IMG/VR virus record: IMGVR_UViG_3300047160_018755
Span: 96,001-160,000 of that record
DNA length: 64,000 nt
Strand: one strand, 5' to 3'
Source: a virus
The notes under the pieces were generated by a model. The model was not told the origin of the DNA. It did no database searches and was given only the letters and a program-made list of their open reading frames with translations. This document shows positions 21,990-45,757 of the stretch, piece after piece (position 1 is the stretch's first letter; each line of letters begins with the position of its first letter). The translations under genes were made by a program, and so were the position numbers.

Positions 21990-23264
21990 TTAACTGCTCG
22001 AAGGCTCGCGGGAGGAGACGGGATGACTGTTCGGGCCGATGATGGGCGCGTCCTTGTCCTGCGCCTGCACCATGCCGGAGTCGACCTGTTTCCAGCCCGT
22101 GCTGCCGTCACCGTGCTGGACCTTCACCTTGTCGCCGACCTGTGAGCCGAGCGGGAAGTTCATCTTGTGGTGCGGGGGCGTACCTTCGATCGGGTTGCTC
22201 GACTTCTCCAGTCCGTAGTCCTTGAAGCAGCCCTTGCAGGTCTTGGAGCCGTCCTTGTGCGGGATGAACTCCTTCTCCTCGCAGTGCGGGCAGGCATCTT
22301 CCGACTTCGCCATCGCTTGCTTGATGACGTCGGGCTCGTCGTCCATCGGAGGACCATCGCCCATCACTTCCTTGCCGAGGAGCACGACGCCCTGGACGAG
22401 GCCGATGATGGCCGCGTACGCATCGGGAGCGTACTGCTGGAGACGCTGGATGTCGGGCAGCTGCTTGCGGATGTTCGTGAGCGCGTCCGTGACCTTCTTC
22501 TTGACGGACTCGGTCTGCTTCTGACCGTCGCCCGCAGCCTGCTCGTCCTGCTTGCTGGAGTCCTCGGCCGCGTCATGGAGCTGCGACTCCATGTCCTGGT
22601 TCATGTTCTCCATGTCGCCCGCGGCGTGAGTCATCTCGGGCGAGGCCGGCTTGGGATCGTCACCCAGAACATCGCCCACATGCTTCATGTCGGTGAAGCC
22701 CGGGTCGTGCTGGACAGCGAAGCCCGCGTTGGGACCGGAGAGCTTCGCCGTGTTGTGCTCCAGGACTTTCTGCGTGTCCTTGCCGCCGGCCGCCTTGTGC
22801 TCTGGCGGCTTGGGCGTGTCGGCCTTGGCGAGGTACTCGTCCGTCAGCTTCTCCTGCTCGGACTTGGGGGCGTCGACCGCGCGCTGGTACTCGGCCGCCA
22901 TCGCGTCTTGGTCCCACACCAAAATCTGGTTGCCGCCGCGGAGCTTTGCGACCACGAGGGCCTTGGCGGAGTCGGACATCTGCATGCCCACGCCCACGGA
23001 GACGGTGGCGCCCACCAGGTTCGAGTACTGCTTCGCGATCGAGGGCATGTCGGCCAGCTTGCTGGCGTCGACCACGATGCGACCCTCGTCGCCACCCATC
23101 TCGATCACCGAGCCGCCGTTGTTCACGGCGAAGCTCTTCCACAGCTCGTTGCCGGCGTTGATGGCCTGGTCGACTCGACGAACCTCACCCACGTCGTTCG
23201 CGAGCACTGCTCGCCCGACGCGGCGGCCGATCTTGTCGCCGTCCCAGCAAACGAAAACGTCCAT
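21990..23264 (-). CDS. Probable virion protein with N-terminal mCpol (minimal Cas10-like nucleotide cyclase) domain
   Basis: WDGDKIGRRV...LANDV...GGSVIEMGGDEG...TVSVGVG...AKALVVAKLRGGNQI; then acidic linker, zinc finger and LxK[S/A] motifs. Confidence 0.75.
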   Translation of the reverse strand: MDVFVCWDGDKIGRRVGRAVLANDVGEVRRVDQAINAGNELWKSFAVNNGGSVIEMGGDEGRIVVDASKLADMPSIAKQYSNLVGATVSVGVGMQMSDSAKALVVAKLRGGNQILVWDQDAMAAEYQRAVDAPKSEQEKLTDEYLAKADTPKPPEHKAAGGKDTQKVLEHNTAKLSGPNAGFAVQHDPGFTDMKHVGDVLGDDPKPASPEMTHAAGDMENMNQDMESQLHDAAEDSSKQDEQAAGDGQKQTESVKKKVTDALTNIRKQLPDIQRLQQYAPDAYAAIIGLVQGVVLLGKEVMGDGPPMDDEPDVIKQAMAKSEDACPHCEEKEFIPHKDGSKTCKGCFKDYGLEKSSNPIEGTPPHHKMNFPLGSQVGDKVKVQHGDGSTGWKQVDSGMVQAQDKDAPIIGPNSHPVSSREPSSS

Positions 23265-23274
23265 GTCCCTAAGA

Positions 23275-23661
23275 TTACGCCCGGTAGTGCTTGCAGGCCG
23301 TATTGCTGCACTCGATGGTTCGGAAGAGAATGAAGGCGTTTCCCCCACAAACGAGGCACGTGTGCGGGTACCTGGACGACTTCTGCTTCTGCTCTTCGTC
23401 CACCAAGATCGCAGCCACGCAGGTGTAGTGCCACGTCCCTTGACGGAAGCCCGCGGTCATGGTAAGGTGATGGGCTTGAGGATCGACAGTGTAGGTCGGC
23501 TTCCAGGCGCACTCGATGACGATCTGGGCCATGTCGTAGTAGTAGCCGACCACCCGTCCAAGCTTCTTCTCCCCGCCAGGCTCCTCCCGGAACCACACGA
23601 CGTACCCCGCCATCTTGTCGGCACGGTTGCGCGCGAAGTTCTTGAAGTCGATCGACGGCAC
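23275..23661 (-). CDS. Hypothetical protein with C-terminal zinc ribbon
   Basis: HTCLVCG...IECSNTAC; AATCTA 6 nt before GTG. Confidence 0.6.
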   Translation of the reverse strand: MPSIDFKNFARNRADKMAGYVVWFREEPGGEKKLGRVVGYYYDMAQIVIECAWKPTYTVDPQAHHLTMTAGFRQGTWHYTCVAAILVDEEQKQKSSRYPHTCLVCGGNAFILFRTIECSNTACKHYRA

Positions 23662-23710
23662 TCTTAATAGATTCCTGCTGATTCGATAGAAATGGCCCGG
23701 AGGGATTACC

Positions 23711-24484: not shown

Positions 24485-24488
24485 ACCC

Positions 24489-25664: not shown

Positions 25665-25678
25665 CCAAGGAGGCCTGC

Positions 25679-27925: not shown

Positions 27926-27940
27926 CTGCTTCACCAAAGA

Positions 27941-29754: not shown

Positions 29755-30044
29755 CCTTCGCCGAGGAGGCCGAGCGAGCCGGCCGCGACCTACTCAAAGA
29801 GCCGCTGCCACCCGCCGACCCGGTCCGGAAAACCATCCGCTTCCGGGCTCGGGTTCCCGCTCGCCTGGGCAAGGGCGGCCGGCCGCGTGACGCCATCGTC
29901 ACGATCGACAAGGCCCTCACGCTGCACATCCGCCCGTTCCGGGGCCGAAAAGACTACTCGATGTCGCTGGAACAAGCCGTTGGCTGGCTCATCCAGAAAC
30001 TCGTCGTCGGCGACAAAGGTCGCCCACGCAAGCGCCGCCTTTAG
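29751..30044 (+). CDS. Basic hypothetical protein
   Basis: GTGA coupling. Confidence 0.55.
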   Translation: MTFAEEAERAGRDLLKEPLPPADPVRKTIRFRARVPARLGKGGRPRDAIVTIDKALTLHIRPFRGRKDYSMSLEQAVGWLIQKLVVGDKGRPRKRRL

Positions 30045-30370
30045 CGCGTCCGGGTGATCTTGCACGCGCCATCGCTCGGGACGATCAGGAGGTCCTGGGC
30101 GGTGCGCGCCGGCACGTCGACGCTGTAGTAGTTGTTCTCGCAGTCGACCGCGAAGGTCACCGAGGTGAGCTTCGGGTTCTTGAACGTGAGGACGTGATTG
30201 GTCACCCAGTACGGGCGGCGAGGATCGGCCACCGTGTTCCAGTGCGTGTAGCGCACGTCGGTCACGACGGGGTTGACCTCATCGCCCGTGTAGGGGCGCG
30301 AGGTGGCGCAGCCCGCCCACAGAGTGAGCAGGGCAACGAATGCAACAGTGAGAAACGCTTTGAGCTTCAT
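30041..30370 (-). CDS. Putative lipoprotein
   Basis: MKLKAFLTVAFVALLTLWAGC lipobox. Confidence 0.7.
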   Translation of the reverse strand: MKLKAFLTVAFVALLTLWAGCATSRPYTGDEVNPVVTDVRYTHWNTVADPRRPYWVTNHVLTFKNPKLTSVTFAVDCENNYYSVDVPARTAQDLLIVPSDGACKITRTR

Positions 30371-30393
30371 GTGGTATCCCTCCGACCCTAAGA

Positions 30394-33300
30394 TTAGGTC
30401 GTTACCCACAACGAGTTGATGATCAAATCGAGGGGCTCGTTGCCGAGGCGGACAGACACCTTCTGCAAGCGATCCATCGTGGGAATCGTGTTGATTCCGT
30501 AGCGCTGGCAGATGAGGCGCACGTCACCCGGAACGATTTTCCCAAACCAAGTCTTCAGCTCCTCAGCAACAGACGCCGGCACCCGCGGCAACGACTTGAG
30601 CTTCGTTGCGGTGTCGAGCTGGTGGAAGTTCTCGTCGAGGCACCACGCGCGCAGGTAGTACGGCACGAACGAGTTGCCGTCGTGGCCAGGATCGAAGCTC
30701 GGGCCGGCGAAGGCCGAGCCGTGATCGATGAGCTGCACGTCACCCTTCGGGTCGACCATCACGTTCTGGCCGTGCGAGTCCGGGTTGCCGAGGATGTAGT
30801 CGATCACGGCCCACTTGTGGACCAGACCCTCGTGCAGGTACTTGTGCAGGACGCTGCGAGCAGTGCCCGGCTCCTTGCGCTCCATCTCGTCGAGCGTCTT
30901 GAAGTCGAGAGCGAGCAGGTGGAGCGCGGAGTACATCTTATCGTCGATGATGACAAGCTCCGCGCGCGGGTACCACTTGCCGATCTCCCACTGCTTCGCG
31001 ATGTGGTAGAACGCGGCCTCGCGAGCGTTGGGGTTCGACGGGTCCTCCTTCGAGCCTGCGGCTCCGCCAGCTCCACCGCTGCCGGACTTGAGCAACAGCG
31101 TCGTCTTCGTCTGCTCATCGTAGGCGATGAACGATCCCTTCGAGTGCTTGCCGCCGAGCGCGACCGGGAACACGAAGTGCGTCTTGAACGCACGCTCGAT
31201 CATTCGCGCCACATCCTCACCCTCAAGATGCGCGGTCACGACCTTCGAAGCGGTCGGCGTCGGCTCCATGATCGGATCCGACTTCGTCAGCCCGCAGATG
31301 GCGTGCAGGGCCTTCAGGTTCTCTTCGCTGCACGGCAGGCCGTACGCCTGGAGCGCAGCACGATCCACGTCACCATCCTCGAAGTAGAGGGCCTGGCGCA
31401 TCGACTCGTCCGAGATGAGCGCTCCGTTGGCGAGGAACTTGGCTGCCTTGAATGCGCGGTGGTTCGCCGGCTCGAAGCCGAGCTGCATGGTCACGATCGG
31501 ATGCTTCGCCACGCCCTCCATCGGAGCCGAGGCGGCCGGGGTGAGCAGATCGAGTGCCTTCGAGAGCATCTTCTGGAGGTGCTGCGGGCCGAAGGCGGGG
31601 TTCGACATCACGCCGGCACGAAGGAGCGTGTCCGGGTGCAGGGCGTGGGTCGCCTCGTCAGCCAGCGTCGGAGACACGCTCTTGTTGCGCAGGAGCGCCC
31701 CGATGAGGCCCGGCGCGGCCGAGGTCGGCAGCAGCTGGGCCTTGGGGAGCAGGTCCTTGAAGATCTCGGCCAGAGCCGGCGTCGACAGACCTTGGTTTGA
31801 CTCCAAGGCGCGCTCCGCGAGCGCCACCACGTGGGGCTCGCCGCGGTCGGCAGCGCGCTGGACGAGGGCCCGGAGGGAGCCGTAGGGCAGCTCCAGGTGC
31901 TCCACAGCGCGCGAGCCGAGGTCTCCTGACCCGCCGCCAGGGACCGTCAGGGCCGTCTTCAGGGCGTGATCCAAGACATCCGCGGCGGCCCTCTTGTGGC
32001 TCAGAATCGCGATTCGCGAATCGTGGACGACATCCGGGTCCATGTACATGGAGCGAAGGAGCCCTTCGGGCGCCTCTGGATGAGCCGCGATCTGGGCGAC
32101 GGTCGCCGCGTAGCAGGCGGGGCCGCACATGCGCGCGGCGCGCGCGAGCGCGGTGAAGTGGTAGGGCTGGAGCTTCCCGGGCTGGCCCAGGAAGAAGTCC
32201 TTCTGGGCCTGCGGGTAGGCGCCGTTCTTGCCGACCACCGCCTCCATCAAGCTCAGCGACTGGGAGGGCCCGAAGAGCGGGTGGTTGATGGCGGCCTGGT
32301 AGATGGACGGGTCAGGATCGAGGGCGGCCTGGAAGAGGTGCTCGGGACGGACCGTGTCGAGCTTGAGGGCCATGCCGCGCTCGATCGGGTCCGGGTTGTC
32401 AAGCATGCGGAAGACCTCGTCCTCCGCCTTCGCAAGATGCGGCAGATGGGTACCGACCATGGCGGCCTGGTCGACATGCTCGCTGGGCAGCTCGTATGCG
32501 TCGAGCTTGCCGCCACCCTCGGCCTTCGCCGCGTGGTACTTGTGGTTGCCGTCGACGACCTCGTAGAGCCCCGTCGAGTTCCGCTTCACTACGAGGGGTG
32601 GGAGTTTCCCCTCCTTGCGGTACATCTTGCGGTAGAGGTCGTAGCGGGACTTGTTCTTGACGTCGTTCTTCGGGACGAGCTTGTCGGTCGTCACCGTGAT
32701 CGGCTTGATGGTCGGGCCGTAGTGGTCCTTCAACGCGGACACGTAGCCGGCGTCGTAGTTGGGGCGGTCCGGGTGCTGGATCGAGGGGATGGAAATGCGG
32801 CTCGTGCCCCAGTCGTCCGAGTGCCAGACCTTGGGCTCCTTCTTTTCGAGCGTGTCCCAGTCCTCGGACTTCTGGACCTTGAAGATCTGGCGCAGGAGGT
32901 TCGTCGAATCCTTCGGGCCATGGAGGTGGTTGTAGACCTTCGGCGGAAGGCCTTCCTCGACGTCGATCCACTCCCACTCAGAGACCTCGTCATCGGGATC
33001 GTTCTTCGGATGCGGAGAGCCGGACACGTACGCGCTGAAGCAGTACGCCTCGGTGCCGTCGGGGAGCGTGTAGTTCTTGAGGTGCGACAGGCTCACCGCA
33101 TGTAGCCCCGTCTCCTCGTACAGCTCGCGGGTCGCGCACTGCTCGGGAGACTCGCCCTCCTCGAAGTGGCCGGCGGGGAGCGTGTAGAAGTCGTTGTCGT
33201 TGCGCTTGCCGACGAGCAGCTGCCCCTCGCCGTTGTAGCAGGTGATGATCGCGACGCGATTGGCGTGGTTGCGGAACTTGTTCTCCAGCTCCTTCGCCTC

Positions 33301-33561
33301 GTCGTGTGCCTGCTCGTACTGCTCGTGCTTGTCGTGCATGAGGTGCGCTTCGCGGCACTCGTGCAGAGCAACGAGCGGGATCTCATCTCGCGGCGTGTTG
33401 TTGTCGATCCAGATCTGGCCCTGCGGAATCCACTTGTAGCGCTCCGGGTTGCCGCCTTGGACGAAGTCCGAGTCGTGCTCGTTGCGGATGACCTCTCCGT
33501 CGACGAGAAAGATCTTCAGCCCGTGAGGACAGGCTCCGATGGGTTGCTTGCGGACATCCAT
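30394..33561 (-). CDS. Multidomain (polyvalent) protein: HE-motif domain, Nudix, ParB-like, helical repeats, PI3K/HipA-like kinase
   Basis: GHFEEGESPEQCATRELYEETGL Nudix box; PPLVV...VVDGNHK; DYILGNPDSHGQN...LIDHG. Confidence 0.8.
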   Translation of the reverse strand: MDVRKQPIGACPHGLKIFLVDGEVIRNEHDSDFVQGGNPERYKWIPQGQIWIDNNTPRDEIPLVALHECREAHLMHDKHEQYEQAHDEAKELENKFRNHANRVAIITCYNGEGQLLVGKRNDNDFYTLPAGHFEEGESPEQCATRELYEETGLHAVSLSHLKNYTLPDGTEAYCFSAYVSGSPHPKNDPDDEVSEWEWIDVEEGLPPKVYNHLHGPKDSTNLLRQIFKVQKSEDWDTLEKKEPKVWHSDDWGTSRISIPSIQHPDRPNYDAGYVSALKDHYGPTIKPITVTTDKLVPKNDVKNKSRYDLYRKMYRKEGKLPPLVVKRNSTGLYEVVDGNHKYHAAKAEGGGKLDAYELPSEHVDQAAMVGTHLPHLAKAEDEVFRMLDNPDPIERGMALKLDTVRPEHLFQAALDPDPSIYQAAINHPLFGPSQSLSLMEAVVGKNGAYPQAQKDFFLGQPGKLQPYHFTALARAARMCGPACYAATVAQIAAHPEAPEGLLRSMYMDPDVVHDSRIAILSHKRAAADVLDHALKTALTVPGGGSGDLGSRAVEHLELPYGSLRALVQRAADRGEPHVVALAERALESNQGLSTPALAEIFKDLLPKAQLLPTSAAPGLIGALLRNKSVSPTLADEATHALHPDTLLRAGVMSNPAFGPQHLQKMLSKALDLLTPAASAPMEGVAKHPIVTMQLGFEPANHRAFKAAKFLANGALISDESMRQALYFEDGDVDRAALQAYGLPCSEENLKALHAICGLTKSDPIMEPTPTASKVVTAHLEGEDVARMIERAFKTHFVFPVALGGKHSKGSFIAYDEQTKTTLLLKSGSGGAGGAAGSKEDPSNPNAREAAFYHIAKQWEIGKWYPRAELVIIDDKMYSALHLLALDFKTLDEMERKEPGTARSVLHKYLHEGLVHKWAVIDYILGNPDSHGQNVMVDPKGDVQLIDHGSAFAGPSFDPGHDGNSFVPYYLRAWCLDENFHQLDTATKLKSLPRVPASVAEELKTWFGKIVPGDVRLICQRYGINTIPTMDRLQKVSVRLGNEPLDLIINSLWVTT

Positions 33562-34608: not shown

Positions 34609-35009
34609 CGCACCCGGAGGAGGACGCCCTTCGGATTGACGAACGTGCGGACGATGGGGCCGGGCTCCGTGAGCGCCGCCGACATCGTCACCGTTCCGGC
34701 GAGAGGGTCCGTCGAGAGGATCGGGATGTACCAGATGCTCGCATCGAGCGTCGGGTACGCCTGCACCGCAGTGCGCGTGACCACCTTCGCGTCGTCGATG
34801 TTGTTGAACGTCACGATCAGCGTGGAGGTCGCGGGCGGGCAGTAACGACGGCCGGCGGGCGAGAAGCCCTGGTCGGTGCGATCGACCGCCTCGTTCGTCA
34901 GCTGAATGTAGAGGTTCTGGGTGTCACCCTTGTACATCTCCGCGGCGGAAATGACCTGGAAGGTGTTGACGCCAGTGACGTCGGTGAGAAAGCGGCAGCC
35001 TAGAATCAT
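34605..35009 (-). CDS. Beta-rich virion-region protein
   Basis: ATGA overlap; structural operon. Confidence 0.6.
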   Translation of the reverse strand: MILGCRFLTDVTGVNTFQVISAAEMYKGDTQNLYIQLTNEAVDRTDQGFSPAGRRYCPPATSTLIVTFNNIDDAKVVTRTAVQAYPTLDASIWYIPILSTDPLAGTVTMSAALTEPGPIVRTFVNPKGVLLRVR

Positions 35010-35407
35010 CGGTACTTGTCCTTGTAGTTCGCCAGAGCAATGCAACGAGCAGTGGAATCGCCCAAAAGTCCTAGAGCAGCATTGCAGGGCGAGCAGAGCA
35101 ACCCTCGAACCTTACCTGTCGCGTGATCGTGATCCACACACAGGGTTCCCATCGGAACCTCATCACACGCAGCGCACTTACCCTCCTGAACGCGCACCAT
35201 TTCCTTGAAAGCGCCCTCAGTAATGCCGTACCTGGTGGATAGCCAATATCGACGCCAATTTTGTCGATAGTGGGTACGCGAAGAAGGCTGCGCGCCGATG
35301 GTCTTCTTGCAAGACTTACAAGTACCCTGACGCCCCGAAGGCGAAGCCTTCCGGCGATGAAAATCAGTCTCCACCTTCTCCAGATGGCAGGAGTTGCAGG
35401 TCAGCAC
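35006..35407 (-). CDS. Endonuclease VII-like (His-Me finger) endonuclease
   Basis: YGIT...QEGKCAAC...VDHDHATGKVRGLLCSPCNAALG. Confidence 0.9.
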   Translation of the reverse strand: MLTCNSCHLEKVETDFHRRKASPSGRQGTCKSCKKTIGAQPSSRTHYRQNWRRYWLSTRYGITEGAFKEMVRVQEGKCAACDEVPMGTLCVDHDHATGKVRGLLCSPCNAALGLLGDSTARCIALANYKDKYR

Positions 35408-37259: not shown

Positions 37260-37552
37260 GACGGCTCCTTTTCGATCTTGGTGGCCGCGATCTTCAGTCC
37301 CAGCTGCTTTTCCAGCTCCTGCACGGCCACGCCCACCGCGGCGGCCTGGTAGTGCACCGTCACCAGCTCCATGAGCTGCGCGTAGGTGGTGTCCGAGATC
37401 ACCGCGACCTGCGTCGCGGCTGTCGTGAGCGCAGCGAGCGCCAGAAGAGGGCACAGAGGATGTTCCTGGAAGACCGCCAAGGCCTCCACGCCAAGCTTCG
37501 TGGCCAGCTCCTTGACCTTCTCCGCGTCCTCGGGCGTGAAGAGGCTCGACAT
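37256..37552 (-). CDS. Hypothetical protein
   Basis: Coupled to neighbours. Confidence 0.55.
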   Translation of the reverse strand: MSSLFTPEDAEKVKELATKLGVEALAVFQEHPLCPLLALAALTTAATQVAVISDTTYAQLMELVTVHYQAAAVGVAVQELEKQLGLKIAATKIEKEPS

Positions 37553-37989
37553 CAGCCGAGGCCTCGAAAAAGACGATAGGCGCCCGGATCTCCACCTTGG
37601 AGTGGCGCCAAGAAGACCTGCTTCAGGACCGAGCTGGTGATGTGGCTGCCGACCCGCTCCAGGACGTACCCCGAAGCGCTCCAGCTGACGTACTGGAGGC
37701 CGATCTCCTCGATCAGGGGTAGGAGAGGCGATGTCGTCAAACGCGCGCTGGCGCGCACGAAGGGCCGCCCCTCGGCGACGTCCAGGAGGGCCCAGTCACT
37801 GTCCTGGAAGCAGTCCTTGGGCCCCATGACCTTGCGGACGTCGACGATGTAGCCCAGCAGGTGGTCGATGTTGTTGTCGAGCCACCCCACGGTCCCGTGC
37901 GCGAGCTTGGAGATGTCCGCACCCGCGATGGAGATCGTCTCCTCGGGGTTGTAGTCTCCCTCGACTAGGATGATGCCGTGGACCTGCAC
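37552..37989 (-). CDS. Hypothetical protein
   Basis: Downstream of GATTCGATAG at 37999. Confidence 0.6.
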   Translation of the reverse strand: MQVHGIILVEGDYNPEETISIAGADISKLAHGTVGWLDNNIDHLLGYIVDVRKVMGPKDCFQDSDWALLDVAEGRPFVRASARLTTSPLLPLIEEIGLQYVSWSASGYVLERVGSHITSSVLKQVFLAPLQGGDPGAYRLFRGLG

Positions 37990-38021
37990 ACCCCATTTCT
38001 ATCGAATCATCGCCCAGATAC

Positions 38022-38081: not shown

Positions 38082-39479
38082 TTACTGGAGGTTGTCGACG
38101 AGGACGTTCTTGCGGGGCTGCATCACGGCCAGCGTGCAGAAGCGGAAGTGCGCCTCGGGCTGGCTGAGGTCCGTGACGGCGAGCTTGAGGCGGCTGTAGG
38201 GAGCCAGCTCCTTCATCGCCATCGTGTCGCCCTCGATCAGGAAGCCCGTGACGAATCCCGGGATCTTGTTGCCGAGGTCCGTGAAGGTCACGGCCGCGCC
38301 CGCGTTCGCCGCGATGCGACCGATGAACTTCTCCGTGCCCGCCGCGCCGCCCGCGAGAGTGCGGTAGACGTTGAAGTAGCGGGTCGTGGAGACCGGCGTG
38401 AGGGAGATGGTGACCTTGTCACCCGCGTTGGTGATCGTCACCGACTGAGTCGCGCAGGCCACGCCCTCGCCCAGCTCGCTGCACGCCGTCGCCTTGTAGA
38501 TGTAGACGTCGTTCGCGAGGAAGTTCGAGACCGCGTTCGCGTCGGTCGCGCCCGTCGGAGCACCCATCGTCGGGGCCGAGGGAGCGGTCGAGCGCGCCGG
38601 AGCGGGCTTGGCCTTGCCACGGAGGAACATGCTGCCCTCGATCTCGACCGTGCCGCCCGAGACCCACTGCTTGCGGAGGTCGCCGCCCGTCGCGCCCTGC
38701 GGGCTGCCCGCGAGGATGATCTTCTCCTTGCCGAAGACGATCTTGTTGTACGCGCTCAGGACCTTCGGGTCGACGACGAGCTTGTCGGCGTCACCGAAGT
38801 TGAGGGCCGAGCGAACGCTCGCGTCCTCGACGATGTCCTGCGTGAGGGGACCGCCGCCCGCGATCACGACCGTGTCGTCCGAGCCGAACTCGGCGAACAT
38901 GAGGTCGCGCGCCTGGCGCTGGTTGTCCGACTGACGGACCTGGAGATCCAGGCCGTGCATGTTCGGGAGCGGAGCCACCGAGAGCGGGTTGCCGTCGAAG
39001 ACGCCCGCGTTCGAGAAGTCCGCGAGGCCGCGGAACAGGTCGAACTCGATGTCGCCCGCGATCTTCTTCGCCGCGTTGGCCGCCTCGCGCTCCTCCGCCT
39101 TCACGCCGTCGACCGTGGTCACCATGTTGGCGACGATGGTCACGCGACGCGTGTGCGAGTAGAACGCCATCGGGACGGTCACACGGACGTAGTCCGCGTT
39201 CTCTTCCTGGCCGATCGCGCCTTCGAGCTGGGCCGAGCCGCCGAAGATGCCGTAGCTCAGCTGACGATCGAACTGGGCGAGCGTCGACTTGCACGACTCG
39301 ACCTTGACCATCTTCTGGAGCTTGATGTGGGACTCGTCGAAGGTCACGACCTGCATGACGTTGGACAGGTCCTCCGTCTGGAGGGCCGCGCCTTGAACGA
39401 GCGTGCTCGGAGCGGCGTTGTAGTTGCCGGCCTCCAAGGCCTTGGTGAGGGACTGGAGTTCAGCGATCAGATCGGACAT
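38082..39479 (-). CDS. Major capsid protein (SPO1/Twort-like)
   Basis: GAALQTEDL...TF...LQKMV...STLAQFDR pattern matches K/A511-type MCP; downstream of scaffold. Confidence 0.92.
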   Translation of the reverse strand: MSDLIAELQSLTKALEAGNYNAAPSTLVQGAALQTEDLSNVMQVVTFDESHIKLQKMVKVESCKSTLAQFDRQLSYGIFGGSAQLEGAIGQEENADYVRVTVPMAFYSHTRRVTIVANMVTTVDGVKAEEREAANAAKKIAGDIEFDLFRGLADFSNAGVFDGNPLSVAPLPNMHGLDLQVRQSDNQRQARDLMFAEFGSDDTVVIAGGGPLTQDIVEDASVRSALNFGDADKLVVDPKVLSAYNKIVFGKEKIILAGSPQGATGGDLRKQWVSGGTVEIEGSMFLRGKAKPAPARSTAPSAPTMGAPTGATDANAVSNFLANDVYIYKATACSELGEGVACATQSVTITNAGDKVTISLTPVSTTRYFNVYRTLAGGAAGTEKFIGRIAANAGAAVTFTDLGNKIPGFVTGFLIEGDTMAMKELAPYSRLKLAVTDLSQPEAHFRFCTLAVMQPRKNVLVDNLQ

Positions 39480-39521: not shown

Positions 39522-40496
39522 TTACTTGAGCAGGTGGGCGATCTGGTCGACCTTCACCTTGCCGAGGTCGAAATCGACGACGAGCGTCTTCTCCGACTTG
39601 GACAGGGTTCCGGCAACGACCTTCTCACGGAGCTTCGCGCGAACCTGCTCGCGCGACATCTGGGTCACATCGGCGGCGGGGGCCGCGGCGGGGATGTCGG
39701 CGGCGAACTTCACCGACTTGCGGAGGGGAGCCTCCAGGACGTGCTTGACGGCCTTGACGAGCGGGAGGACCGCCTCCTGCACCTTCGCGTTGATCTCGGC
39801 CGTGATCTCGGCCTCGCTCTTGTGGAGCGACTCGCCACCCTTGACCTTCGAGAGGTCGCCGTTGGCCTTGGGATCGTTGCTCATGCCCGACTCCGCCTTC
39901 AGCGCGGGCGCCGGAGCGCTCGCATCCGCGGGGGGAGCCGACGCCGCCGGGGGCGGCGCGCCAGCAGAGGCATCCGGGCCCGCCGGAGGCGGGGCGCCAG
40001 CGCCAGCGTCCGCACCAGCACCCGCGAGGGTCTGCATGAGGACCTGCTTGAGGCACATGTAGTGCAGCTTCTGGTCTTCCGGCGAGAGCTTCGAGTACTC
40101 CGCCATCAGAGCCTGCGGGTCGATCGGACCCTGGTCGGCCGCGGGGTCACCGCTGCCGTCCGGAGACGCCGAAGCGTCCGGAGACGCCGAGCCAGCGTCC
40201 GCCGGGGGCGGAGCCGAACCGTCGTCACCCGCGGGCGACGCCGAAGCGTCGGCCGGAGGGCCGTCCGAACCCGTGGCGTCGGGCGAAGCCGAGGCCGCAT
40301 CCGGAGACGCCGAGGCCGCGGAGGTGTTGTCCCCCGTGGGATCGGTGTCCGACGCGTCCGACTTGTCGTCCGCCGGGGTGTCCTCGCCGGGGCGAGCCTT
40401 GGCGAGTTCCGACTTCGCGAGATTGCCCAGCTCCTTCTCGACCTCCGCGAGGATGGCCGAGAGCTGGCTCTCGTCGATCTGTGCAGTGTTGGACAT
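39522..40496 (-). CDS. Capsid scaffold protein
   Basis: Acidic ASPDA-repeat low-complexity protein just upstream of MCP; six LxK[S/A] motifs. Confidence 0.7.
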   Translation of the reverse strand: MSNTAQIDESQLSAILAEVEKELGNLAKSELAKARPGEDTPADDKSDASDTDPTGDNTSAASASPDAASASPDATGSDGPPADASASPAGDDGSAPPPADAGSASPDASASPDGSGDPAADQGPIDPQALMAEYSKLSPEDQKLHYMCLKQVLMQTLAGAGADAGAGAPPPAGPDASAGAPPPAASAPPADASAPAPALKAESGMSNDPKANGDLSKVKGGESLHKSEAEITAEINAKVQEAVLPLVKAVKHVLEAPLRKSVKFAADIPAAAPAADVTQMSREQVRAKLREKVVAGTLSKSEKTLVVDFDLGKVKVDQIAHLLK

Positions 40497-40532
40497 GATG
40501 TGTTCCTTCCCGTGCTTGGGTGTCGAGGCGAC

Positions 40533-41012: not shown

Positions 41013-41127
41013 TGAAATTTTCTCCTGTGGGATCTTGGTGCGGGACCGATCCCGCCGTCTTCCATGAGATTGCCGCGCACCCGTAACAAAAATCGTGAAA
41101 GAGCCCTAATCTTCCAGGGGTTAGCCC

Positions 41128-41514
41128 ATGCCTAACCTGTACGTCTGCTCGGGTTGCAAAAACCCTAAGCCTCGCGGGGAGTTCCACGAGGCTCATTACA
41201 CGGACCGCAAGCGCGTCGTGACCTCCCGTTGCCGCGAGTGCCGATCCGAGGACTACTTCACCGACCGTTACGAAACGGTGTGCGGGCAGTGCCGGCGCCA
41301 TCGACCGCTGAACCAGAACCGCGTGTGCAAGAAGTGCAACGAGGACTCCGGCCTGCGCGAGTGCCGCGGGGCGTGCGGATCGCTCCTACCGGCGCTGCTG
41401 TCGTTCGACGGCAAGCGCACGACGTGCAAGTCGTGCCGGAAGCTTAGGCAGCTGCCTTCGGCGTCTTCGGCGGCTTCGGCAGCGCAGTCGCGACGGTCGG
41501 CGATGCCGGCGTAA
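41128..41514 (+). CDS. Multi-zinc-finger protein convergent on the protease gene
   Basis: Six Cys pairs (CxxC/CxxxC); AATCTT upstream. Confidence 0.6.
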   Translation: MPNLYVCSGCKNPKPRGEFHEAHYTDRKRVVTSRCRECRSEDYFTDRYETVCGQCRRHRPLNQNRVCKKCNEDSGLRECRGACGSLLPALLSFDGKRTTCKSCRKLRQLPSASSAASAAQSRRSAMPA

Positions 41515-44500
41515 CGGTCTGGTGGACCGCGTGCTGGCCAGCATCGTGGATCGGCAGCGGACCTTCATGACCCGGCATCAGTGAGTGGGCGAGGTTCGGC
41601 ACCTGGCCGACCTTGTACTGGCGCTTGTCGCCCATGATGCCGAGCTTCTTGCCCATCTGGCGCATCGCTGAGGGCTGCGCGACCTTCTGCTCCTTCGCCT
41701 TGTAGAGCGCGAGGTCGGCGGACGCGGGGTCCGGGCCGAAGCCGAAGGACATGCTCATCTTGTGCTGGCCGCCGAGAGGGGCGAGCGAGTTGAGCTTGTC
41801 GCTCAGCGCACGGTGGAACTGCGCCGCGTGCTCGTGGCTCGGGACGTGCGCGATGAATTCGTCGCCGCCGTTGCGCCAGAGCTTGCCGTTCTCCTTGCCC
41901 ACGGTCTCGTCCATCGCCTCACGAGCGGCGTTGCCGAAGGCCTTGATGGCGGAGTCGCCGCCCGCGTGGCCGAACTTCTCGTTGATCGCGCGGAAGTCGT
42001 TGCCGTCCATCTGAATGTACGCGCCGGTCTTGCCGCCCGGGTTCTGCTTCAGGTGGTCGGTGAACGCGAGCTTGTTGCCGAGCCCCGGAACCATGGGGTC
42101 CGAGAAGAAGTGCTTCGTGGCGATGTCGCCCGAGCCCTTCGGCATGGCGCCACGAGCTTCCGCATCGCGGATGTGGCGCACCAGCTCGTGCGGCTCCATC
42201 TCCGCCGGATCCGCCTTCATGAGCGACTCGAACGCGGCCTCCGCCTTCATGACGGAGTCGAACTGGCTCTTCTGCTTCGCCTTGTACGAGATCTTGGCGG
42301 CACCGGACTTGTGGTTTTCGAGGATCTTCTGCACCTCGGGCTGCGACAGCTTCTCGCCATCGAGCAGGTAGTGCCCGTCCTTCACTTCGAGGGTGTGCGG
42401 CTTGTCGTGGCCGGCACGCTTGTACTCGAAGACCGACGGCGGACGCGGGAGACGTGCGTTGTTCTGCATCTTCTCCGGGTGCGCGTGCTCGCGGAACTTG
42501 TCGTTCTGACCGTCCATCGTCTCGACCTCGACACGGACGTGTGGAGACATCTTGAGTCCGTGCAGCTTCGTCAGGCCCTGGATGGTGAGCGGTCCCTCAG
42601 GCAGAGTCGCCCCGATGAGGCCGTGGTAGTCTTCGAGGTGGTGAACCTGGCCCTGGTGCAGGACGAAGCGGCCCGCGAGGTGCTCGGTGTTGCCGTGGTC
42701 CTTGTCCTTGAAGAACACGGAGTGCACAGTCGGCACGTTCGGGTCCGAAATCTTGGCGACCTGCATGTCGTGGACGTTCTTGCGCAGCTGGATGCCGAGG
42801 TTCTCGATCTGCATCGACTTCGCGAAGTCCGACAGGTCGTCGTGCTTCTCGCGGTACTCGGCCATCTCGTAGAGGTGTGGGACGATGTGCTGGTAGTACA
42901 TCATCATCGCCGGGATCTCGCCGAACTCCTGCTGGTACGCGAGGAAGAGCGCGACGAGCTTGCCCATCATGTGCTCGTCCGGCTCCTTGTCGGAGAACGC
43001 GTTCTTCTTGAGCTGGGGCGCCTCGCTGCCGAACACGCGCTCCATCTGCTTCCACATGGCCGAGTGCGTGCTCAGCTCGTTCTGCGAGGCGGTCGTGTCG
43101 ATGCCGCGGGCCTTCTCGTCACGGGGGATGGTCGCCCAGTGCAACCAGAAGCCCGGACCAACAGCGTCCTCGTTGTCCTTGAAGTGCTTGCCCGCCACCG
43201 GGTCCTGCGCGATCGAGCGCGGCGCCGGGTGGTTCTTGGCGTACCAGCGATCCATCGCCTCCAGGATGTGGTGGTTGCCGGCGCGCCACAGGCCTGTCTT
43301 CAGGTACTGGAGCGTGCGACCGTCGGTCGCGTTGTCCATCCCGAACATGTGGCGGATGTAGTGCGTGTCGTGCACGGCGGCGTTCGAGCCACCGGTCAAC
43401 AGAAAGGCGTATCGTCCCGTCTTCGGGGCCAGCCCGGGGACAGGAGTGCCCTCGTACTTCGGGAACTTCTCGTGCAGAGCACGGTTCACGAAGGGAGAGA
43501 GCTTGTCTTGGAGGCCGGCGTCCGTCGCCTCCTGCTTGAACTTCGCGCGGTACCAGCGCTTGCCCGTCAGGCGCGAGGCGGAGTACTTCGCGATGCTGGG
43601 GTGCTCTTTGTACTCGTCCGGGTTGAAGTCGGTGTCGTCGTTGCCCGTGAGCATGCGCGGATCGAAGGGAAGCGGCGCATCGTCATCGTCGTCAGCGCCC
43701 GGCTCACGCTCGGCCGGAGCCTGACCCTTCTTCGTGAACTTGCCAGCAGCGTTCGCCTCGTTCATCTTCTGGTCGACGTAGTTCTTGTGGTCGTCGGTCA
43801 GACCCGCGGCAGCCGCCTGCGCCTTCAGCTTCTTGCGGAAGGCGTTGCGCTGGTTCTTCCACTGGATCTCCTTCACCTTGTGCTGCATCAGCTCCGCAGT
43901 GGCGGCGCGTGCATCGGTGCCGTGCTTCTGGATCAGCTCCATCATCGTCGGGTGGAGCTTGTGGTACTGGGCGATGTTGTCGAACTTGTTGTTCGCCAGC
44001 ATGAAGGACTTCACGTCACCGACCTTGCGGCGACCGCCTTTCTCGCTGTCGCTGCTCAGGAAGTTGCCCTTGTCGTTGGCATACTCCTCGGTGTCGTTCT
44101 TCGGGAGGTTGTTCGCCTTGTCGCGAGCCTTCCAGTCCTTGCGGAGCTTGCGAAACTCAGGGTCCGCCGGGTCGAGGCCATGCTCCTGCCAGCTGTCGTA
44201 GAGGTGGCCCTCCATCAGCTGCTGGACGGAGACCGGCGTGTTCGGCGACATGGCCGACATGAGGTACGCGATCTTGACGATGTCCGGCGGAAGCGTCTTC
44301 GCTTCGAGATTTTGCTTGTTGCGGACGAATCCAGGCAGAACCTTGCTGCGGATGAACTCCTTGATCTCGGGAGTCTCCAACATCTTCGCGAATTCGGGGT
44401 TCGGACCGTTGTGCGGGATCTGATTCATGTCCGCACCTGGCGCCACGTGCAAAACGCCGTTGTGGTAGAAGGGCGAGAGCTTCGCGAGCGGGTGAGTCTT

Positions 44501-45757
44501 CTGCTCGAAGCCCGTGTCGGGGTTGTACATCGGGAAAGAGCCCTTGCGCGTGTGCAAGATGCCCTTTTGCTCGTCGAACACCCACTTGTTGGTCTTCACC
44601 TTCGGCGCAGCGACCGGAACGCCTCGAATCGAGGCCACGGCGAGCTTCACCGGGTTGTCATCGGGCTCCTCGGGCTTCGCAACCTTCGGCGCAGCGACCT
44701 TGCCGGTCTTTTTCGGAGTTTTTGCCGGTTTCGGAGCCGCGGAAACGGGCTTGGGCGCTGCCTTTTTCGGCGTCGCGGCCGGTTTCTTGCCGATCTTGGC
44801 TGCCGGTGTGGCCGAAGGCTCCTTTTTCGCGAGGTGCTGCTTCTTGACGTGGTAGTCCTCGACCACATCCGTGAAGTGATCGATGAAATCGTCGCTCGCC
44901 TCGGGCATCAGCGTCTTCGCGAAGCCGCGGAACTCGCTGCGGTTGAAGACCTCCATGTAGCCGCCCTCGGAGAGCTTCTGGATCAGGTCTCCGGTCGTCC
45001 ACTTCTTCGCCTTGCCGGGCTTCTTCGGGCCGAGATCTTCCTTCTGGAGAGCCGCGCCGCCTTCGAGAGCACTCGGGGCGGCCGAAGCGGTGCCCGCGGC
45101 GAGCGCCTTGCTCAGGTCGTCGACCATCGGGTCTCCGACCGTGCCCCACGAGCTGCCGAGGCGCTGGAACATCGGATCGGTCTCACTCTTCTCGGCGTCG
45201 GAGAAGTCGAGGAGGTCACGCACCTTCGTCTTGACGTGCTTCTTCTCGAATCCCTCGGGCGCGTTCGGATCTTCGATGAGTCCCGACACCGCCGTGCGGT
45301 TGCAGGGCTTCACGGTGACGGCCACGCGACGCACGACGGACTCCGCGAGGCGGTTGTCCTCCTTCTTGAGCGTCGCACCTTCGACCGAGTAGCGGCAGAC
45401 GATGGGCTCGTTGTTCGCGGCGTGATCGCGGATGATGGCGGCGATGCGCTTCGCCTCTTCGTGGCCGGCGCCGTCATACAGACGGCAGACGCCGTAGATG
45501 TACGGAAGTTTGATCTCGTCCCAGTAGCGCCGCTGGCGGTCGTTTTCGCAGTCGTCGCGCTTGTAGATCTTCTTCGCCTTGAGGACGATGCCGACCAGGG
45601 TGGTCGCGCTCTTGTCACCGGGGGTGTGCTCCCAGTTCAGAAGACAGGTGCCCTTCTCGACATCGGAAATGTCAGCGCCCGCGACGTCGAGGACTTCGCC
45701 CGAGGAATCGATGGCCTCGGAACCGAGGACACCGTCAATCATCATGCCGGTTGACAC
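41444..45757 (-). CDS. Prohead protease polyprotein with C-terminal GGDEF diguanylate cyclase domain
   Basis: N-terminal EAIDSSGE...LNWEH...YSVEG...VAVTVKPCN protease; central HhH-like motif; C-terminal DGNDFRAINEKFGHAGGD...RNGGDEF. Confidence 0.85.
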   Translation of the reverse strand: MSTGMMIDGVLGSEAIDSSGEVLDVAGADISDVEKGTCLLNWEHTPGDKSATTLVGIVLKAKKIYKRDDCENDRQRRYWDEIKLPYIYGVCRLYDGAGHEEAKRIAAIIRDHAANNEPIVCRYSVEGATLKKEDNRLAESVVRRVAVTVKPCNRTAVSGLIEDPNAPEGFEKKHVKTKVRDLLDFSDAEKSETDPMFQRLGSSWGTVGDPMVDDLSKALAAGTASAAPSALEGGAALQKEDLGPKKPGKAKKWTTGDLIQKLSEGGYMEVFNRSEFRGFAKTLMPEASDDFIDHFTDVVEDYHVKKQHLAKKEPSATPAAKIGKKPAATPKKAAPKPVSAAPKPAKTPKKTGKVAAPKVAKPEEPDDNPVKLAVASIRGVPVAAPKVKTNKWVFDEQKGILHTRKGSFPMYNPDTGFEQKTHPLAKLSPFYHNGVLHVAPGADMNQIPHNGPNPEFAKMLETPEIKEFIRSKVLPGFVRNKQNLEAKTLPPDIVKIAYLMSAMSPNTPVSVQQLMEGHLYDSWQEHGLDPADPEFRKLRKDWKARDKANNLPKNDTEEYANDKGNFLSSDSEKGGRRKVGDVKSFMLANNKFDNIAQYHKLHPTMMELIQKHGTDARAATAELMQHKVKEIQWKNQRNAFRKKLKAQAAAAGLTDDHKNYVDQKMNEANAAGKFTKKGQAPAEREPGADDDDDAPLPFDPRMLTGNDDTDFNPDEYKEHPSIAKYSASRLTGKRWYRAKFKQEATDAGLQDKLSPFVNRALHEKFPKYEGTPVPGLAPKTGRYAFLLTGGSNAAVHDTHYIRHMFGMDNATDGRTLQYLKTGLWRAGNHHILEAMDRWYAKNHPAPRSIAQDPVAGKHFKDNEDAVGPGFWLHWATIPRDEKARGIDTTASQNELSTHSAMWKQMERVFGSEAPQLKKNAFSDKEPDEHMMGKLVALFLAYQQEFGEIPAMMMYYQHIVPHLYEMAEYREKHDDLSDFAKSMQIENLGIQLRKNVHDMQVAKISDPNVPTVHSVFFKDKDHGNTEHLAGRFVLHQGQVHHLEDYHGLIGATLPEGPLTIQGLTKLHGLKMSPHVRVEVETMDGQNDKFREHAHPEKMQNNARLPRPPSVFEYKRAGHDKPHTLEVKDGHYLLDGEKLSQPEVQKILENHKSGAAKISYKAKQKSQFDSVMKAEAAFESLMKADPAEMEPHELVRHIRDAEARGAMPKGSGDIATKHFFSDPMVPGLGNKLAFTDHLKQNPGGKTGAYIQMDGNDFRAINEKFGHAGGDSAIKAFGNAAREAMDETVGKENGKLWRNGGDEFIAHVPSHEHAAQFHRALSDKLNSLAPLGGQHKMSMSFGFGPDPASADLALYKAKEQKVAQPSAMRQMGKKLGIMGDKRQYKVGQVPNLAHSLMPGHEGPLPIHDAGQHAVHQTVTPASPTVATALPKPPKTPKAAA

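What the first reader, a model, noticed from the sequence alone, without database searches (positions are those of the whole stretch)
21990..45757. System-level hypothesis: a virion-delivered second-messenger toolkit
Seen: three late, head-region genes carry two different palm-fold cyclases (GGDEF and mCpol), a Nudix hydrolase and a kinase, each bounded by putative maturation sites. Known: polyvalent phage proteins deliver enzymes with the DNA, and cyclic nucleotides control CBASS, type III CRISPR, mCpol-based defence and c-di-GMP lifestyle switching. Inference: on injection, before any phage transcription, the phage could both write and erase nucleotide signals to silence immunity and remodel host surface state. 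I do not recall this combination being described, but could not check.
Basis: inference. Interest (0 to 1): 0.85.

Follow-up and report, generated by a model that had tools for sequence, protein, structure and literature searches.

The report
Phage head-cargo polyproteins carrying cyclases
An uncultured 182-kb relative of Myxococcus phage Mx1 builds three large structural-module proteins from swappable enzyme modules (two nucleotide cyclases, a Nudix hydrolase, a kinase, a DNA-glycosylase-like domain), one fused to the capsid-maturation protease, so they are probably loaded into the head, cut apart and injected; this is a new variant of the already proposed 'polyvalent protein' idea, and none of it has been measured.

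Summary
The window lies in a complete 182,279-bp phage record related to Myxococcus phage Mx1. Gene 41444-45757(-) is the head-maturation protease extended by an Ogg-like DNA-glycosylase domain and an intact GGDEF cyclase. Gene 30394-33561(-) joins Nudix, a ParB-like domain and a PI4KII/HipA-like kinase. Gene 21990-23264(-) starts with an mCpol cyclase. Catalytic motifs are kept in about 100, 27 and 75 metagenomic relatives.

The domains are separated by a Lys motif (hydrophobic-x-K-A/S-E/D). The same motif sits at the capsid protein's N-terminus, recurs in the scaffolds, and keeps its position at domain borders in distant relatives.

The modules swap: GGDEF and kinase are fused to the protease, separate, or both, and relatives add PBECR5 and GNAT. 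So these are 'polyvalent' virion cargo proteins, probably cut by the head protease.

The 'write and erase second messengers' reading is only partly supported:
- Nudix chemistry cannot open cyclic phosphodiesters.
- The genome has no EAL, HD or 2H phosphodiesterase.
- The conserved core cargo is the glycosylase, not a cyclase.
- Mx1's mCpol homologue is catalytically dead.
- GGDEF, kinase, ParB and Nudix in head-packaged proteins were predicted in 2017 and 2022. An mCpol there seems undescribed.

This scan has found the same kind of system in other Mx1-like genomes. Packaging, cleavage, ejection and activity are all unmeasured.

The parts
41444..45757 (-). Protease-cargo polyprotein gene, 1437 aa, GTG start
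   Evidence: ORF and codon-position GC. About 100 homologues, many full-length, begin at the same point. An AATCTT element lies 12 nt before the start codon.
45233..45757 (-). Prohead maturation protease domain (about residues 1-175), SPO1/Herelleviridae type
   Evidence: hhalign of 40 homologues against the Bacillus phage Nachito protease: 94.8% probability, E 5e-8. His44 and Ser124 are invariant. The Mx1 orthologue is annotated as putative prohead protease.
45029..45196 (-). First Lys site (residues 188-192) and a segment (213-243) that mirrors the capsid protein's N-terminus
   Evidence: Direct reading. Lys217 is invariant in 40 homologues.
43064..44407 (-). HhH-GPD (Ogg-like) DNA-glycosylase-like domain with a long helical insertion. 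Lys779 is encoded at 43421-43423 and Asp797 at 43367-43369.
   Evidence: AF2 model with pLDDT 83. VIA-align top hit 3n0u_A: Z 15.8, rmsd 3.1, 206 of 209 residues. The next 20 rows are all HhH-GPD enzymes. Lys779, Asp797 and His799 are invariant.
42209..42253 (-). Two Lys sites just before the GGDEF domain (residues 1169-1183)
   Evidence: both positions are conserved in the GGDEF-bearing homologues.
41687..42085 (-). GGDEF domain. The GGDEF motif is at 41855-41869. No RxxD inhibitory site.
   Evidence: Pfam E 2.5e-9. The profile matches solved diguanylate cyclases. The motif is kept as GGDEF or GGDEM in most homologues.
30394..33561 (-). Nudix / ParB-like / kinase polyprotein gene, 1055 aa
32938..33261 (-). 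Nudix domain with a complete Nudix box
   Evidence: Pfam E 1.1e-20. The box is found in 24 of the 27 sequences examined, the window's own protein included. No NCBIfam equivalog cut-off is reached, so the substrate is unknown.
32863..32877 (-). Lys site at the end of the Nudix domain (residues 229-233)
   Evidence: A site about 100 residues after the start of the Nudix box is present in most homologues and in Mx1.
32515..32700 (-). ParB/Srx-like domain (tentative)
   Evidence: Pfam ParB_N E 0.0012, 19.3 bits, below the cut-off of 26.3. The region is conserved in the Mx1 NUDIX protein.
32422..32436 (-). Lys site after the ParB-like domain (residues 376-380)
   Evidence: Equivalent sites occur in homologues.
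31276..31290 (-). Lys site before the kinase (residues 758-762)
   Evidence: It lies about 165 residues before the catalytic loop in most homologues. It falls in a low-pLDDT linker of the model.
30397..31242 (-). Atypical kinase domain, PI4KII/CtkA/HipA-like
   Evidence: AF2 model with pLDDT 87. PI4KIIalpha Z 18.4, CtkA 13.7, HipT 13.0. The catalytic Asp, Asn and Asp are invariant.
21990..23264 (-). mCpol polyprotein gene. The likely start is ATG 23264 (424 aa); the GTG at 23348 is less likely.
   Evidence: Homologues start at the Met. AATCTT lies 12 nt before this ATG.
22920..23252 (-). mCpol domain with DGD and GGDE motifs
   Evidence: Pfam E 1.2e-12. The full domain matches solved Panoptes OptS (9mnr) and 9nwn at E about 5e-4. 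GGDE is kept in 72 of 74 homologues, and DGD in 64 of the 73 sequences scored for it.
22818..22871 (-). Two Lys sites after the mCpol domain
   Evidence: The position is conserved in homologues.
22299..22313 (-). Lys site before the C-terminal zinc ribbon and small beta domain (21993-22298)
   Evidence: The C-terminal domain is conserved in Mx1.
39522..40496 (-). Scaffold-like protein carrying five Lys sites
   Evidence: Position between protease and capsid genes. Motif enrichment p = 4e-5 genome-wide. The scaffolds of Mx1 and L008 show the same.
38082..39479 (-). Major capsid protein. The Lys site is near residue 13.
   Evidence: 58.5% identity to the Mx1 capsid protein. PHROG major head protein. 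The N-terminal motif is conserved in four Mx1-like phages and in Herelleviridae.
46690..48837 (-). Portal protein
   Evidence: PHROG portal families.
45938..46690 (-). MuF/SPP1 gp7-like minor head protein (weak)
   Evidence: PHROG portal-associated family. NCBIfam phageSPP1_gp7 E 0.0048, below cut-off. An HPxCRC motif is present.

Best explanation
The three genes encode polyvalent virion cargo proteins of an Mx1-like contractile-tailed phage.

The first is the phage's own prohead protease, extended by a copy of the capsid protein's N-terminal segment, a Lys/Ala/Pro-rich linker, an Ogg-like DNA-glycosylase domain and a C-terminal GGDEF cyclase. Because it is the protease, it is built into the procapsid. 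The other two (Nudix / ParB-like / kinase, and mCpol / zinc ribbon) are made from the same structural gene block.

Inside the procapsid the protease probably cuts all of them, together with the capsid protein and the scaffold, at hydrophobic-x-K-[A/S]-[E/D] sites in the linkers. This would free single folded enzymes that are too large to leave the shell. They would stay with the DNA and would most likely be ejected into the next host, as T4 Alt and the internal proteins are.

In the host the GGDEF fragment would make c-di-GMP without product inhibition. The mCpol would make a cyclic di- or oligoadenylate-type nucleotide. The Nudix domain would split a nucleoside-diphosphate-X compound. The kinase would phosphorylate an unknown host target.

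Shown here: domain identities, intact and conserved catalytic residues, fusion to the protease, motif positions, synteny and module swapping. Inferred: cleavage, packaging, ejection, enzyme products and host effects.

The two cyclases are two of many interchangeable modules, not a fixed signalling unit.
For: - The window is part of a complete phage record with terminal repeats related to Mx1.
- The protease domain is identified by profile comparison, with invariant His and Ser.
- Residues 213-243 of the polyprotein mirror the capsid protein's N-terminus, and Lys217 is invariant.
- Gene order portal / protease polyprotein / scaffold / capsid is kept in Mx1, L007 and L008.
- The Lys motif occurs 5, 5, 2 and 6 times in the scaffolds of four Mx1-like phages, and 14 of 35 genome-wide hits lie in the scaffold plus the three proteins.
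- Motif positions at domain borders are conserved down to about 35% identity in all three families. One site lies in a low-confidence linker of the model.
- Catalytic motifs are conserved: GGDEF or GGDEM in most of about 100 homologues, GGDE in 72 of 74 mCpol homologues, the Nudix box in 24 of the 27 sequences examined, and the kinase Asp/Asn/Asp invariant.
- Modules swap between the proteins. The kinase replaces or joins GGDEF on the protease protein (P0064, P0025). GGDEF is a separate gene in Mx1 and L007. PBECR5, the polyvalent-protein hallmark domain, occurs in relatives of two of the families.
- Precedents: T4 and SPN3US ejection proteins cut by the head protease (PMC7411985), and polyvalent proteins (PMC5512222, PMC9503650).
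Against: - No virion proteome exists for Mx1 or any relative (PMC10720576 is a genome announcement only).
- The cut site is inferred and was defined after looking at these proteins. By simple rate, the protease polyprotein is not enriched in it (3 sites in 1437 aa).
- The Nudix/kinase and mCpol proteins have no demonstrated capsid-targeting signal. They lie in the neck/tail-proximal part of the module, so they could sit elsewhere in the virion or not be packaged at all.
- The Mx1 mCpol homologue has lost both catalytic motifs, so that activity is dispensable in a viable relative.
- A free GGDEF domain must dimerise to be active.
- The AATCTT start-proximal element that precedes two of the genes also precedes an endonuclease VII gene, so it does not define a late class.
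Confidence: 0.55

Rival explanations
1. The modules form one coordinated second-messenger toolkit. On injection, before any phage transcription, it both writes (GGDEF, mCpol) and erases (Nudix) nucleotide signals to silence CBASS, type III CRISPR or mCpol-based defence and to remodel the host surface.
For: Two intact palm-fold cyclases and a Nudix enzyme are kept together on several related contigs. The GGDEF lacks the inhibitory site. The mCpol domain aligns over its full length with Panoptes OptS. Injected nucleotide-targeting enzymes have been proposed before (PMC5512222, PMC9503650).
Against: Nudix enzymes cleave pyrophosphate bonds, not the phosphodiesters of cyclic di- or oligonucleotides (established chemistry). 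No EAL, HD or 2H phosphodiesterase was found in the 182-kb genome. The modules are freely swapped or absent in relatives, and the conserved cargo is a glycosylase-like domain. The kinase resembles protein or lipid kinases. mCpol is dead in Mx1. No host, defence system or signal is identified.
Confidence: 0.15
2. The enzymes work in the producing cell late in infection, as precursors or free proteins. For example, they might raise c-di-GMP to change pili, exopolysaccharide or superinfection. Incorporation into heads would then be incidental, or a way to remove them.
For: GGDEF and the kinase exist as separate genes in Mx1 and L007, so fusion to the protease is not required. Phages are known to raise host c-di-GMP from within the cell (the YfiN-interacting peptide cited in PMC11461919).
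Against: The separate GGDEF protein of L007 keeps the upstream domain and the Lys sites of the fused form. The genes always stay inside the head gene block. Repeated fusion to the protease or to each other points to a shared fate in the capsid.
Confidence: 0.12
3. The domains are exapted structural or DNA-handling parts of the head interior or neck, such as inner-body or ejection-machinery proteins. Their catalysis would be irrelevant.
For: The Mx1 mCpol homologue has lost both motifs yet keeps the rest of the protein. Some protease polyproteins carry no C-terminal enzyme. An HhH-GPD domain binds DNA.
Against: Catalytic residues of GGDEF, mCpol, Nudix, kinase and the glycosylase-like domain are conserved across wide divergence. 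That is not expected for purely structural use.
Confidence: 0.08

Closest known systems
Polyvalent proteins of phages and conjugative elements (Iyer, Burroughs, Anand, de Souza, Aravind 2017, PMC5512222)
   Same: Large late-gene proteins that join unrelated enzyme domains and are predicted to be packaged and injected. GGDEF, kinase, ParB-like and PBECR domains and an assemblin-like peptidase are all on that paper's list. PBECR5 occurs in relatives of two of the three families here.
   Different: [quoted passage not shown] Here the protease is N-terminal, is the phage's own prohead protease, and GGDEF is the commonest C-terminal module of a whole phage clade. mCpol is not mentioned in the paper. 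The usual zincin-like peptidase and MuF fusion are absent.
T4 internal proteins IPI-III and Alt with prohead protease gp21; SPN3US/phiKZ-type ejection proteins with gp245 (PMC7411985)
   Same: Head-internal proteins are cut by the maturation protease at a short motif shared with the capsid protein. They are kept in the head and ejected with the DNA. Alt is an enzyme that acts on host targets.
   Different: Those cargo proteins are separate gene products with short or long N-terminal targeting propeptides, and their cut motifs end in Glu (LxE, AxE). Here the cargo is strung into polyproteins, one continuous with the protease, and the motif centres on Lys. Nothing has been shown experimentally.
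Head-associated phage Nudix proteins (Iyer et al. 2022, PMC9503650)
   Same: Nudix genes lie in late clusters or are fused to MuF, portal or the capsid-processing serine peptidase. They are predicted to be packaged and to counter NAD-derived signals, mainly in contractile-tailed phages.
   Different: Here Nudix is fused to a ParB-like domain and a PI4KII/HipA-like kinase, not to the peptidase. No substrate class is assignable.
Panoptes OptS / mCpol cyclases (PMC12657218, PMC12657230, PMC13577387)
   Same: A minimal Cas10-palm domain of about 115 residues with both acidic motifs. There is a full-length sequence match to the solved OptS.
   Different: It is phage-encoded, sits at the N-terminus of a structural-module polyprotein and has no 2TM, CARF or SAVED partner nearby. 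The product is unknown. No close relative was found in species-representative bacterial genomes.
Herelleviridae (SPO1-like) head module: portal, prohead protease, scaffold, capsid protein
   Same: Same gene order, a related capsid protein (about 26% identity) and protease, and the same capsid N-terminal Leu-x-Lys-Ala-Leu motif.
   Different: The Herelleviridae protease is about 250 aa and has no cargo. The Nachito scaffold has only one copy of the motif.
Ogg2-type 8-oxoguanine DNA glycosylases (Tm1821, 3n0u)
   Same: The fold matches over the whole Tm1821 chain (Z 15.8). The HhH Lys and the Asp 18 residues later are present and invariant.
   Different: The domain is embedded in a capsid polyprotein and interrupted by a long helical insertion. 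There is no detectable sequence match to Pfam or the PDB, and the substrate is unknown.

Membership tests
GGDEF diguanylate cyclases (PF00990) | Profile match above the curated threshold | tested here: met
   37.5 bits against a cut-off of 23.8. 42.6 bits in the six-frame genome search. The profile matches solved diguanylate cyclases.
GGDEF diguanylate cyclases (PF00990) | GG[D/E]EF active-site motif, the upstream metal-binding Asp, and the guanine-contacting Asn and Asp | tested here: met
   Read in the translation and in the alignment to 3ign. The motif is kept in most homologues. The Asp that distinguishes c-di-GMP from cGAMP synthases is retained.
GGDEF diguanylate cyclases (PF00990) | Synthesis of c-di-GMP by a dimer | not testable with these tools
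   Needs an enzyme assay.
mCpol (PF18182) | Profile match above the curated threshold | tested here: met
   Pfam 48.7 bits against 26.4. The NCBIfam mCpol model gives 35.4 bits, below its cut-off of 40.
mCpol (PF18182) | Both acidic palm motifs, and similarity to a characterised mCpol | tested here: met
   DGD and GGDE are present and kept in 64 and 72 of about 74 homologues. OptS 9mnr matches at E 4.7e-4 over the whole domain.
Panoptes defence system | mCpol gene in an operon with a 2TM-beta-barrel, CARF-TM or SAVED effector | tested here: not met
   The neighbours are phage structural genes, a dNMP kinase and a DNA ligase. This is not a Panoptes system.
Nudix hydrolases (PF00293) | Profile match and a complete Nudix box | tested here: met
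   74.4 bits against 21.1. The box is read and found in 24 of the 27 sequences examined.
Nudix hydrolases (PF00293) | Assignment to a substrate subfamily | tested here: inconclusive
   The best NCBIfam hits (YtkD, RppH, MutT, NudC, NudE) are all far below their equivalog cut-offs.
Prohead maturation serine protease (HK97/SPO1 assemblin-like) | Homology to a known prohead protease, with conserved His and Ser | tested here: met
   hhalign 94.8%, E 5e-8 against the Nachito protease. His44 and Ser124 are invariant. Pfam and PHROGs give no direct hit.
Prohead maturation serine protease (HK97/SPO1 assemblin-like) | Position between the portal and scaffold/capsid genes | tested here: met
HhH-GPD DNA glycosylases | Fold, plus an HhH Lys and a catalytic Asp about 18-20 residues later | tested here: met
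   Z 15.8 to 3n0u, followed by 20 further superfamily members. Lys779 and Asp797 are invariant. Foldseek alone gave no significant match. Activity is untested.
PI3/PI4-kinase-like atypical kinases | Fold and catalytic-loop residues | tested here: met
   PI4KIIalpha Z 18.4, rmsd 3.5, 246 residues, Foldseek E 4e-6. Asp, Asn and Asp are invariant. The Pfam score of 26.6 is just under the 27.1 cut-off here but well above it in relative P0129. Lipid or protein substrate is not resolved.
ParB/Srx N-terminal domain | Profile match above threshold | tested here: inconclusive
   19.3 bits against 26.3. Relatives of the mCpol protein carry PF02195.
Polyvalent proteins (PMC5512222) | Two or more unrelated enzyme domains in one late-gene polypeptide, next to virion genes, with variable architecture | tested here: met
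Polyvalent proteins (PMC5512222) | Packaging into virions and delivery to the host | not testable with these tools
   Needs virion proteomics and ejection assays.

The most novel reading that the evidence does not exclude
The phage injects ready-made cyclases as counter-counter-defence. In this reading the virion-borne mCpol supplies the very decoy nucleotide (2',3'-c-di-AMP or cA3 type) that Panoptes-like guard systems use to keep their membrane effector off, so the guard stays silent while the phage disturbs host nucleotide pools. The feedback-insensitive GGDEF would flood the cell with c-di-GMP within seconds of injection to switch surface and motility state. That would be the first case of a virus delivering second-messenger synthases as proteins inside its capsid.
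Probability: 0.12. Interest if true: 0.85.

Novelty: new variant of a known kind. Interest (0 to 1): 0.58.

Why it matters
If the cargo is really packaged and ejected, this phage clade delivers active enzymes with its DNA, and among them are makers of bacterial second messengers. The clade has about 100 members in soil and other metagenomes and one cultured member, Mx1. Almost all known phage counter-measures destroy or sequester such signals, so a phage that writes them at the moment of entry would be a different strategy. It bears directly on the newly described guard systems that monitor the nucleotide pool.

The system would also give a simple, readable cut-site code and a natural protease-linked capsid-loading scheme. 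The claims are testable in Myxococcus xanthus with Mx1.

Tried and rejected
- Megablast of the 23.8-kb stretch against phage records found nothing. Only protein-level search found Mx1.
- Pfam, PHROGs and a PDB profile search did not recognise the protease or the central domain of the large protein. They needed hhalign against a known protease and a fold search. Foldseek against the PDB gave no significant match for the central domain.
- The atlas look-up pointed only to a viral DUF7178 cluster.
- The simple rate of K[A/S][E/D] is not raised in the protease polyprotein. One unrelated Ala/Lys-rich protein outside the window also scores high. I therefore rest the cut-site case on positional conservation, not on rate.
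- I looked for a shared late promoter. The AATCTT element 12 nt before the start codons of two of the three genes also precedes an endonuclease VII gene and many other genes, so I dropped it as evidence for 'late'.
- A pattern scan of species-representative bacterial genomes for relatives of the mCpol protein found none.
- Six-frame searches of the whole phage genome for EAL, HD and 2H phosphoesterase domains found none.
- Literature phrase searches for a phage-encoded diguanylate cyclase or mCpol returned only a paper on a phage peptide that activates a host cyclase.
- A local MAFFT run timed out and was replaced by motif scans.
- I considered a zincin-type peptidase in the N-terminus of the Nudix protein and rejected it, because there is no HExxH.

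Full report
**Where the window lies**

The window is bases 96001-160000 of a complete 182,279-bp virus record with direct terminal repeats. Its GC content is about 63%. Real genes stand out by codon-position GC and lie mostly on the minus strand. There is no nucleotide-level relative among phage records. However, the capsid protein (38082-39479) is 58.5% identical to that of Myxococcus phage Mx1 and about 26% identical to Herelleviridae capsid proteins. Mx1 has the same gene order and carries GenBank annotations 'putative prohead protease', 'nucleotide cyclase', 'NUDIX hydrolase' and 'kinase' at the matching places. The Mx1 genome announcement gives no functional analysis and no proteomics (PMC10720576).

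**The observation**

It also gives a weak ParB_N match. The translations show all the active-site motifs:
- GGDEF with its upstream metal and guanine contacts, and no RxxD inhibitory site.
- The DGD and GGDE of mCpol.
- A complete Nudix box.
- The kinase catalytic and DHG loops.

The neighbours are portal, a MuF-like protein, scaffold, capsid, an adaptor-like protein, a virion structural protein, a tail-terminator-like protein and a weak sheath match. A thymidylate synthase, a dNMP kinase, a DNA ligase and an endonuclease VII gene are interspersed among them.

**What the large protein is**

A profile of 40 homologues matches the prohead protease of Bacillus phage Nachito (hhalign 94.8%, E 5e-8) through the His and Ser motifs, and both residues are invariant. 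The gene sits where Herelleviridae keep their 250-aa protease, between portal and scaffold.

Directly after the protease domain comes a segment that copies the capsid protein's N-terminus, with an invariant Lys. I read this as the shared docking and cutting element.

A model of residues 395-1010 (pLDDT 83) has no significant Foldseek match. An exhaustive structural alignment gives the Thermotoga Ogg glycosylase at Z 15.8 (rmsd 3.1, 206 of 209 residues), followed by twenty other HhH-GPD enzymes. The helix-hairpin-helix Lys and the Asp 18 residues later are invariant. This glycosylase-like domain, not the cyclase, is the constant cargo of the family.

**The other two proteins**

The kinase model (pLDDT 87) is closest to type II PI 4-kinase (Z 18.4). 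Next come the protein kinases CtkA and HipT/HipA, then Fam20C and CotH. Its target is therefore open, and nothing links it to nucleotides.

The Nudix domain cannot be placed in a substrate subfamily.

The mCpol domain aligns over its whole length with the solved Panoptes OptS (E about 5e-4). It has no effector partner, so this is not a Panoptes system.

**The family picture**

About 100 relatives of the protease polyprotein were found, on contigs of up to 201 kb. There are 27 relatives of the Nudix/kinase protein and 75 of the mCpol protein.
- Catalytic motifs are kept: GGDEF or GGDEM in most, GGDE in 72 of 74 and DGD in 64 of the 73 sequences scored for it, the Nudix box in 24 of the 27 sequences examined, and the kinase Asp/Asn/Asp invariant.
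- Architectures vary. The kinase replaces GGDEF on the protease protein in several phages, and both are present in P0025. GGDEF is a separate gene right after the polyprotein in Mx1 and L007. PBECR5, GNAT, ParB_N and DUF5661 modules appear in relatives.

This is the behaviour described for polyvalent proteins (PMC5512222).

**The cut sites**

A motif, hydrophobic-x-K-[A/S/M]-[E/D], lies at every domain border in the three proteins. The evidence that it is a cut site is as follows:
- The capsid proteins of four Mx1-like phages, and of Herelleviridae, carry Leu-x-Lys-Ala-Leu near the N-terminus. The scaffolds of the four Mx1-like phages carry 5, 5, 2 and 6 copies of the motif, against one in Nachito.
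- Genome-wide, 14 of 35 hits fall in the scaffold plus the three proteins, which are 6.6% of the proteome. The motif was chosen after seeing them, and by rate alone the protease protein is not enriched.
- The stronger evidence is position. The sites after the protease, before GGDEF, after mCpol, about 100 residues after the Nudix box and about 165 residues before the kinase loop recur in relatives down to about 35% identity.
- One site lies in a low-confidence linker of the model.

Cutting itself is unproven.

**How it most likely works**

The protease polyprotein enters the procapsid as the protease must. It cuts capsid, scaffold and cargo at the Lys sites. Small pieces leave, while folded enzymes stay with the DNA and are ejected into the next cell. 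This is what happens to T4 Alt and the internal proteins, and to the SPN3US ejection proteins (PMC7411985). I put this at about 0.55.

**Why the 'write and erase' reading is weaker (about 0.15)**
- Nudix chemistry does not open cyclic phosphodiesters.
- The genome has no EAL, HD or 2H phosphodiesterase and only one GGDEF.
- The modules are interchangeable.
- Mx1's mCpol homologue has lost both motifs.

Other rivals are enzymes acting late in the producing cell (0.12) and purely structural use (0.08).

**Novelty**

GGDEF, kinase, ParB-like and PBECR domains in injected polyvalent proteins were proposed in 2017, with the assemblin-like peptidase said to be always C-terminal (PMC5512222). Head-associated Nudix proteins, including fusions to the capsid-processing peptidase, were proposed in 2022 (PMC9503650).

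New here are:
- The N-terminal prohead protease as carrier.
- The Lys cut-site code shared with capsid and scaffold.
- The Ogg-like core cargo.
- A phage structural-module mCpol.

I found the last described neither in the polyvalent-protein paper (no occurrence) nor in the passages I searched or read of three Panoptes papers, nor in a phrase search.

Earlier notes of this scan report the same kind of system in other Mx1-like genomes. I count them as agreement, not as evidence.

Noticed in passing
window 45764-45769(-), 23271-23276(-), 20343-20348(-) and 18 more places in the genome: The hexamer AATCT[T/C/A] lies exactly 12 nt before the start codon of 21 ORFs of 40 or more codons in the 182-kb genome. 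These include the protease polyprotein, the mCpol gene (at its ATG 23264), the tail-terminator-like gene and an endonuclease VII gene. The fixed spacing suggests a promoter element placed so close that the transcripts would be leaderless or nearly so.
   Followed up: partly
window 5199-59339, 12 copies, e.g. 8140-8147(-), 23682-23689(+), 37999-38006(-): TTCGATAG occurs 12 times against 0.7 expected. It lies upstream of tRNA clusters, the dNMP kinase/ligase pair and the thymidylate synthase block, but not upstream of the three polyprotein genes. It is probably a different promoter class.
   Followed up: partly
window 37552-37989(-): A 145-aa ORF just downstream of the capsid gene is a diverged paralogue of the prohead protease domain (hhalign 92%, E 5e-7). 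It appears to lack the catalytic His motif.
   Followed up: partly
L001 33963-35369 (Mx1): The Mx1 orthologue of the mCpol protein has lost both catalytic motifs while keeping the linker and the C-terminal domain. The cultured phage is therefore a natural catalytic-null for this module.
   Followed up: yes
window 16024-18144(-): A 706-aa low-complexity Lys/Ala/Pro/Gly-rich protein before the sheath-like gene starts with the same zinc-ribbon motif (CPxC ... PHKDGSxTCxGC) as the C-terminal part of the mCpol protein. No family match was found.
   Followed up: no
window 35006-35407(-): An endonuclease VII (HNH) gene with low third-position GC (0.59 against about 0.88) lies inside the head/neck gene block. 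It is probably a homing endonuclease.
   Followed up: partly
window 18714-19337(-): A 207-aa protein in the tail-proximal block matches DUF3293 (28.6 bits, above the cut-off) and, weakly, the S-adenosylmethionine lyase family. This could be an anti-restriction function.
   Followed up: no
window 30041-30409(-): A 122-aa ORF overlapping the end of the Nudix/kinase gene has a lipoprotein-like signal (hydrophobic stretch followed by Cys). No family match was found.
   Followed up: no
L007 7929-9989: In a 98.8-kb relative, a 686-aa DUF3626 protein sits between the portal and the protease polyprotein. This is one more variable cargo slot.
   Followed up: no
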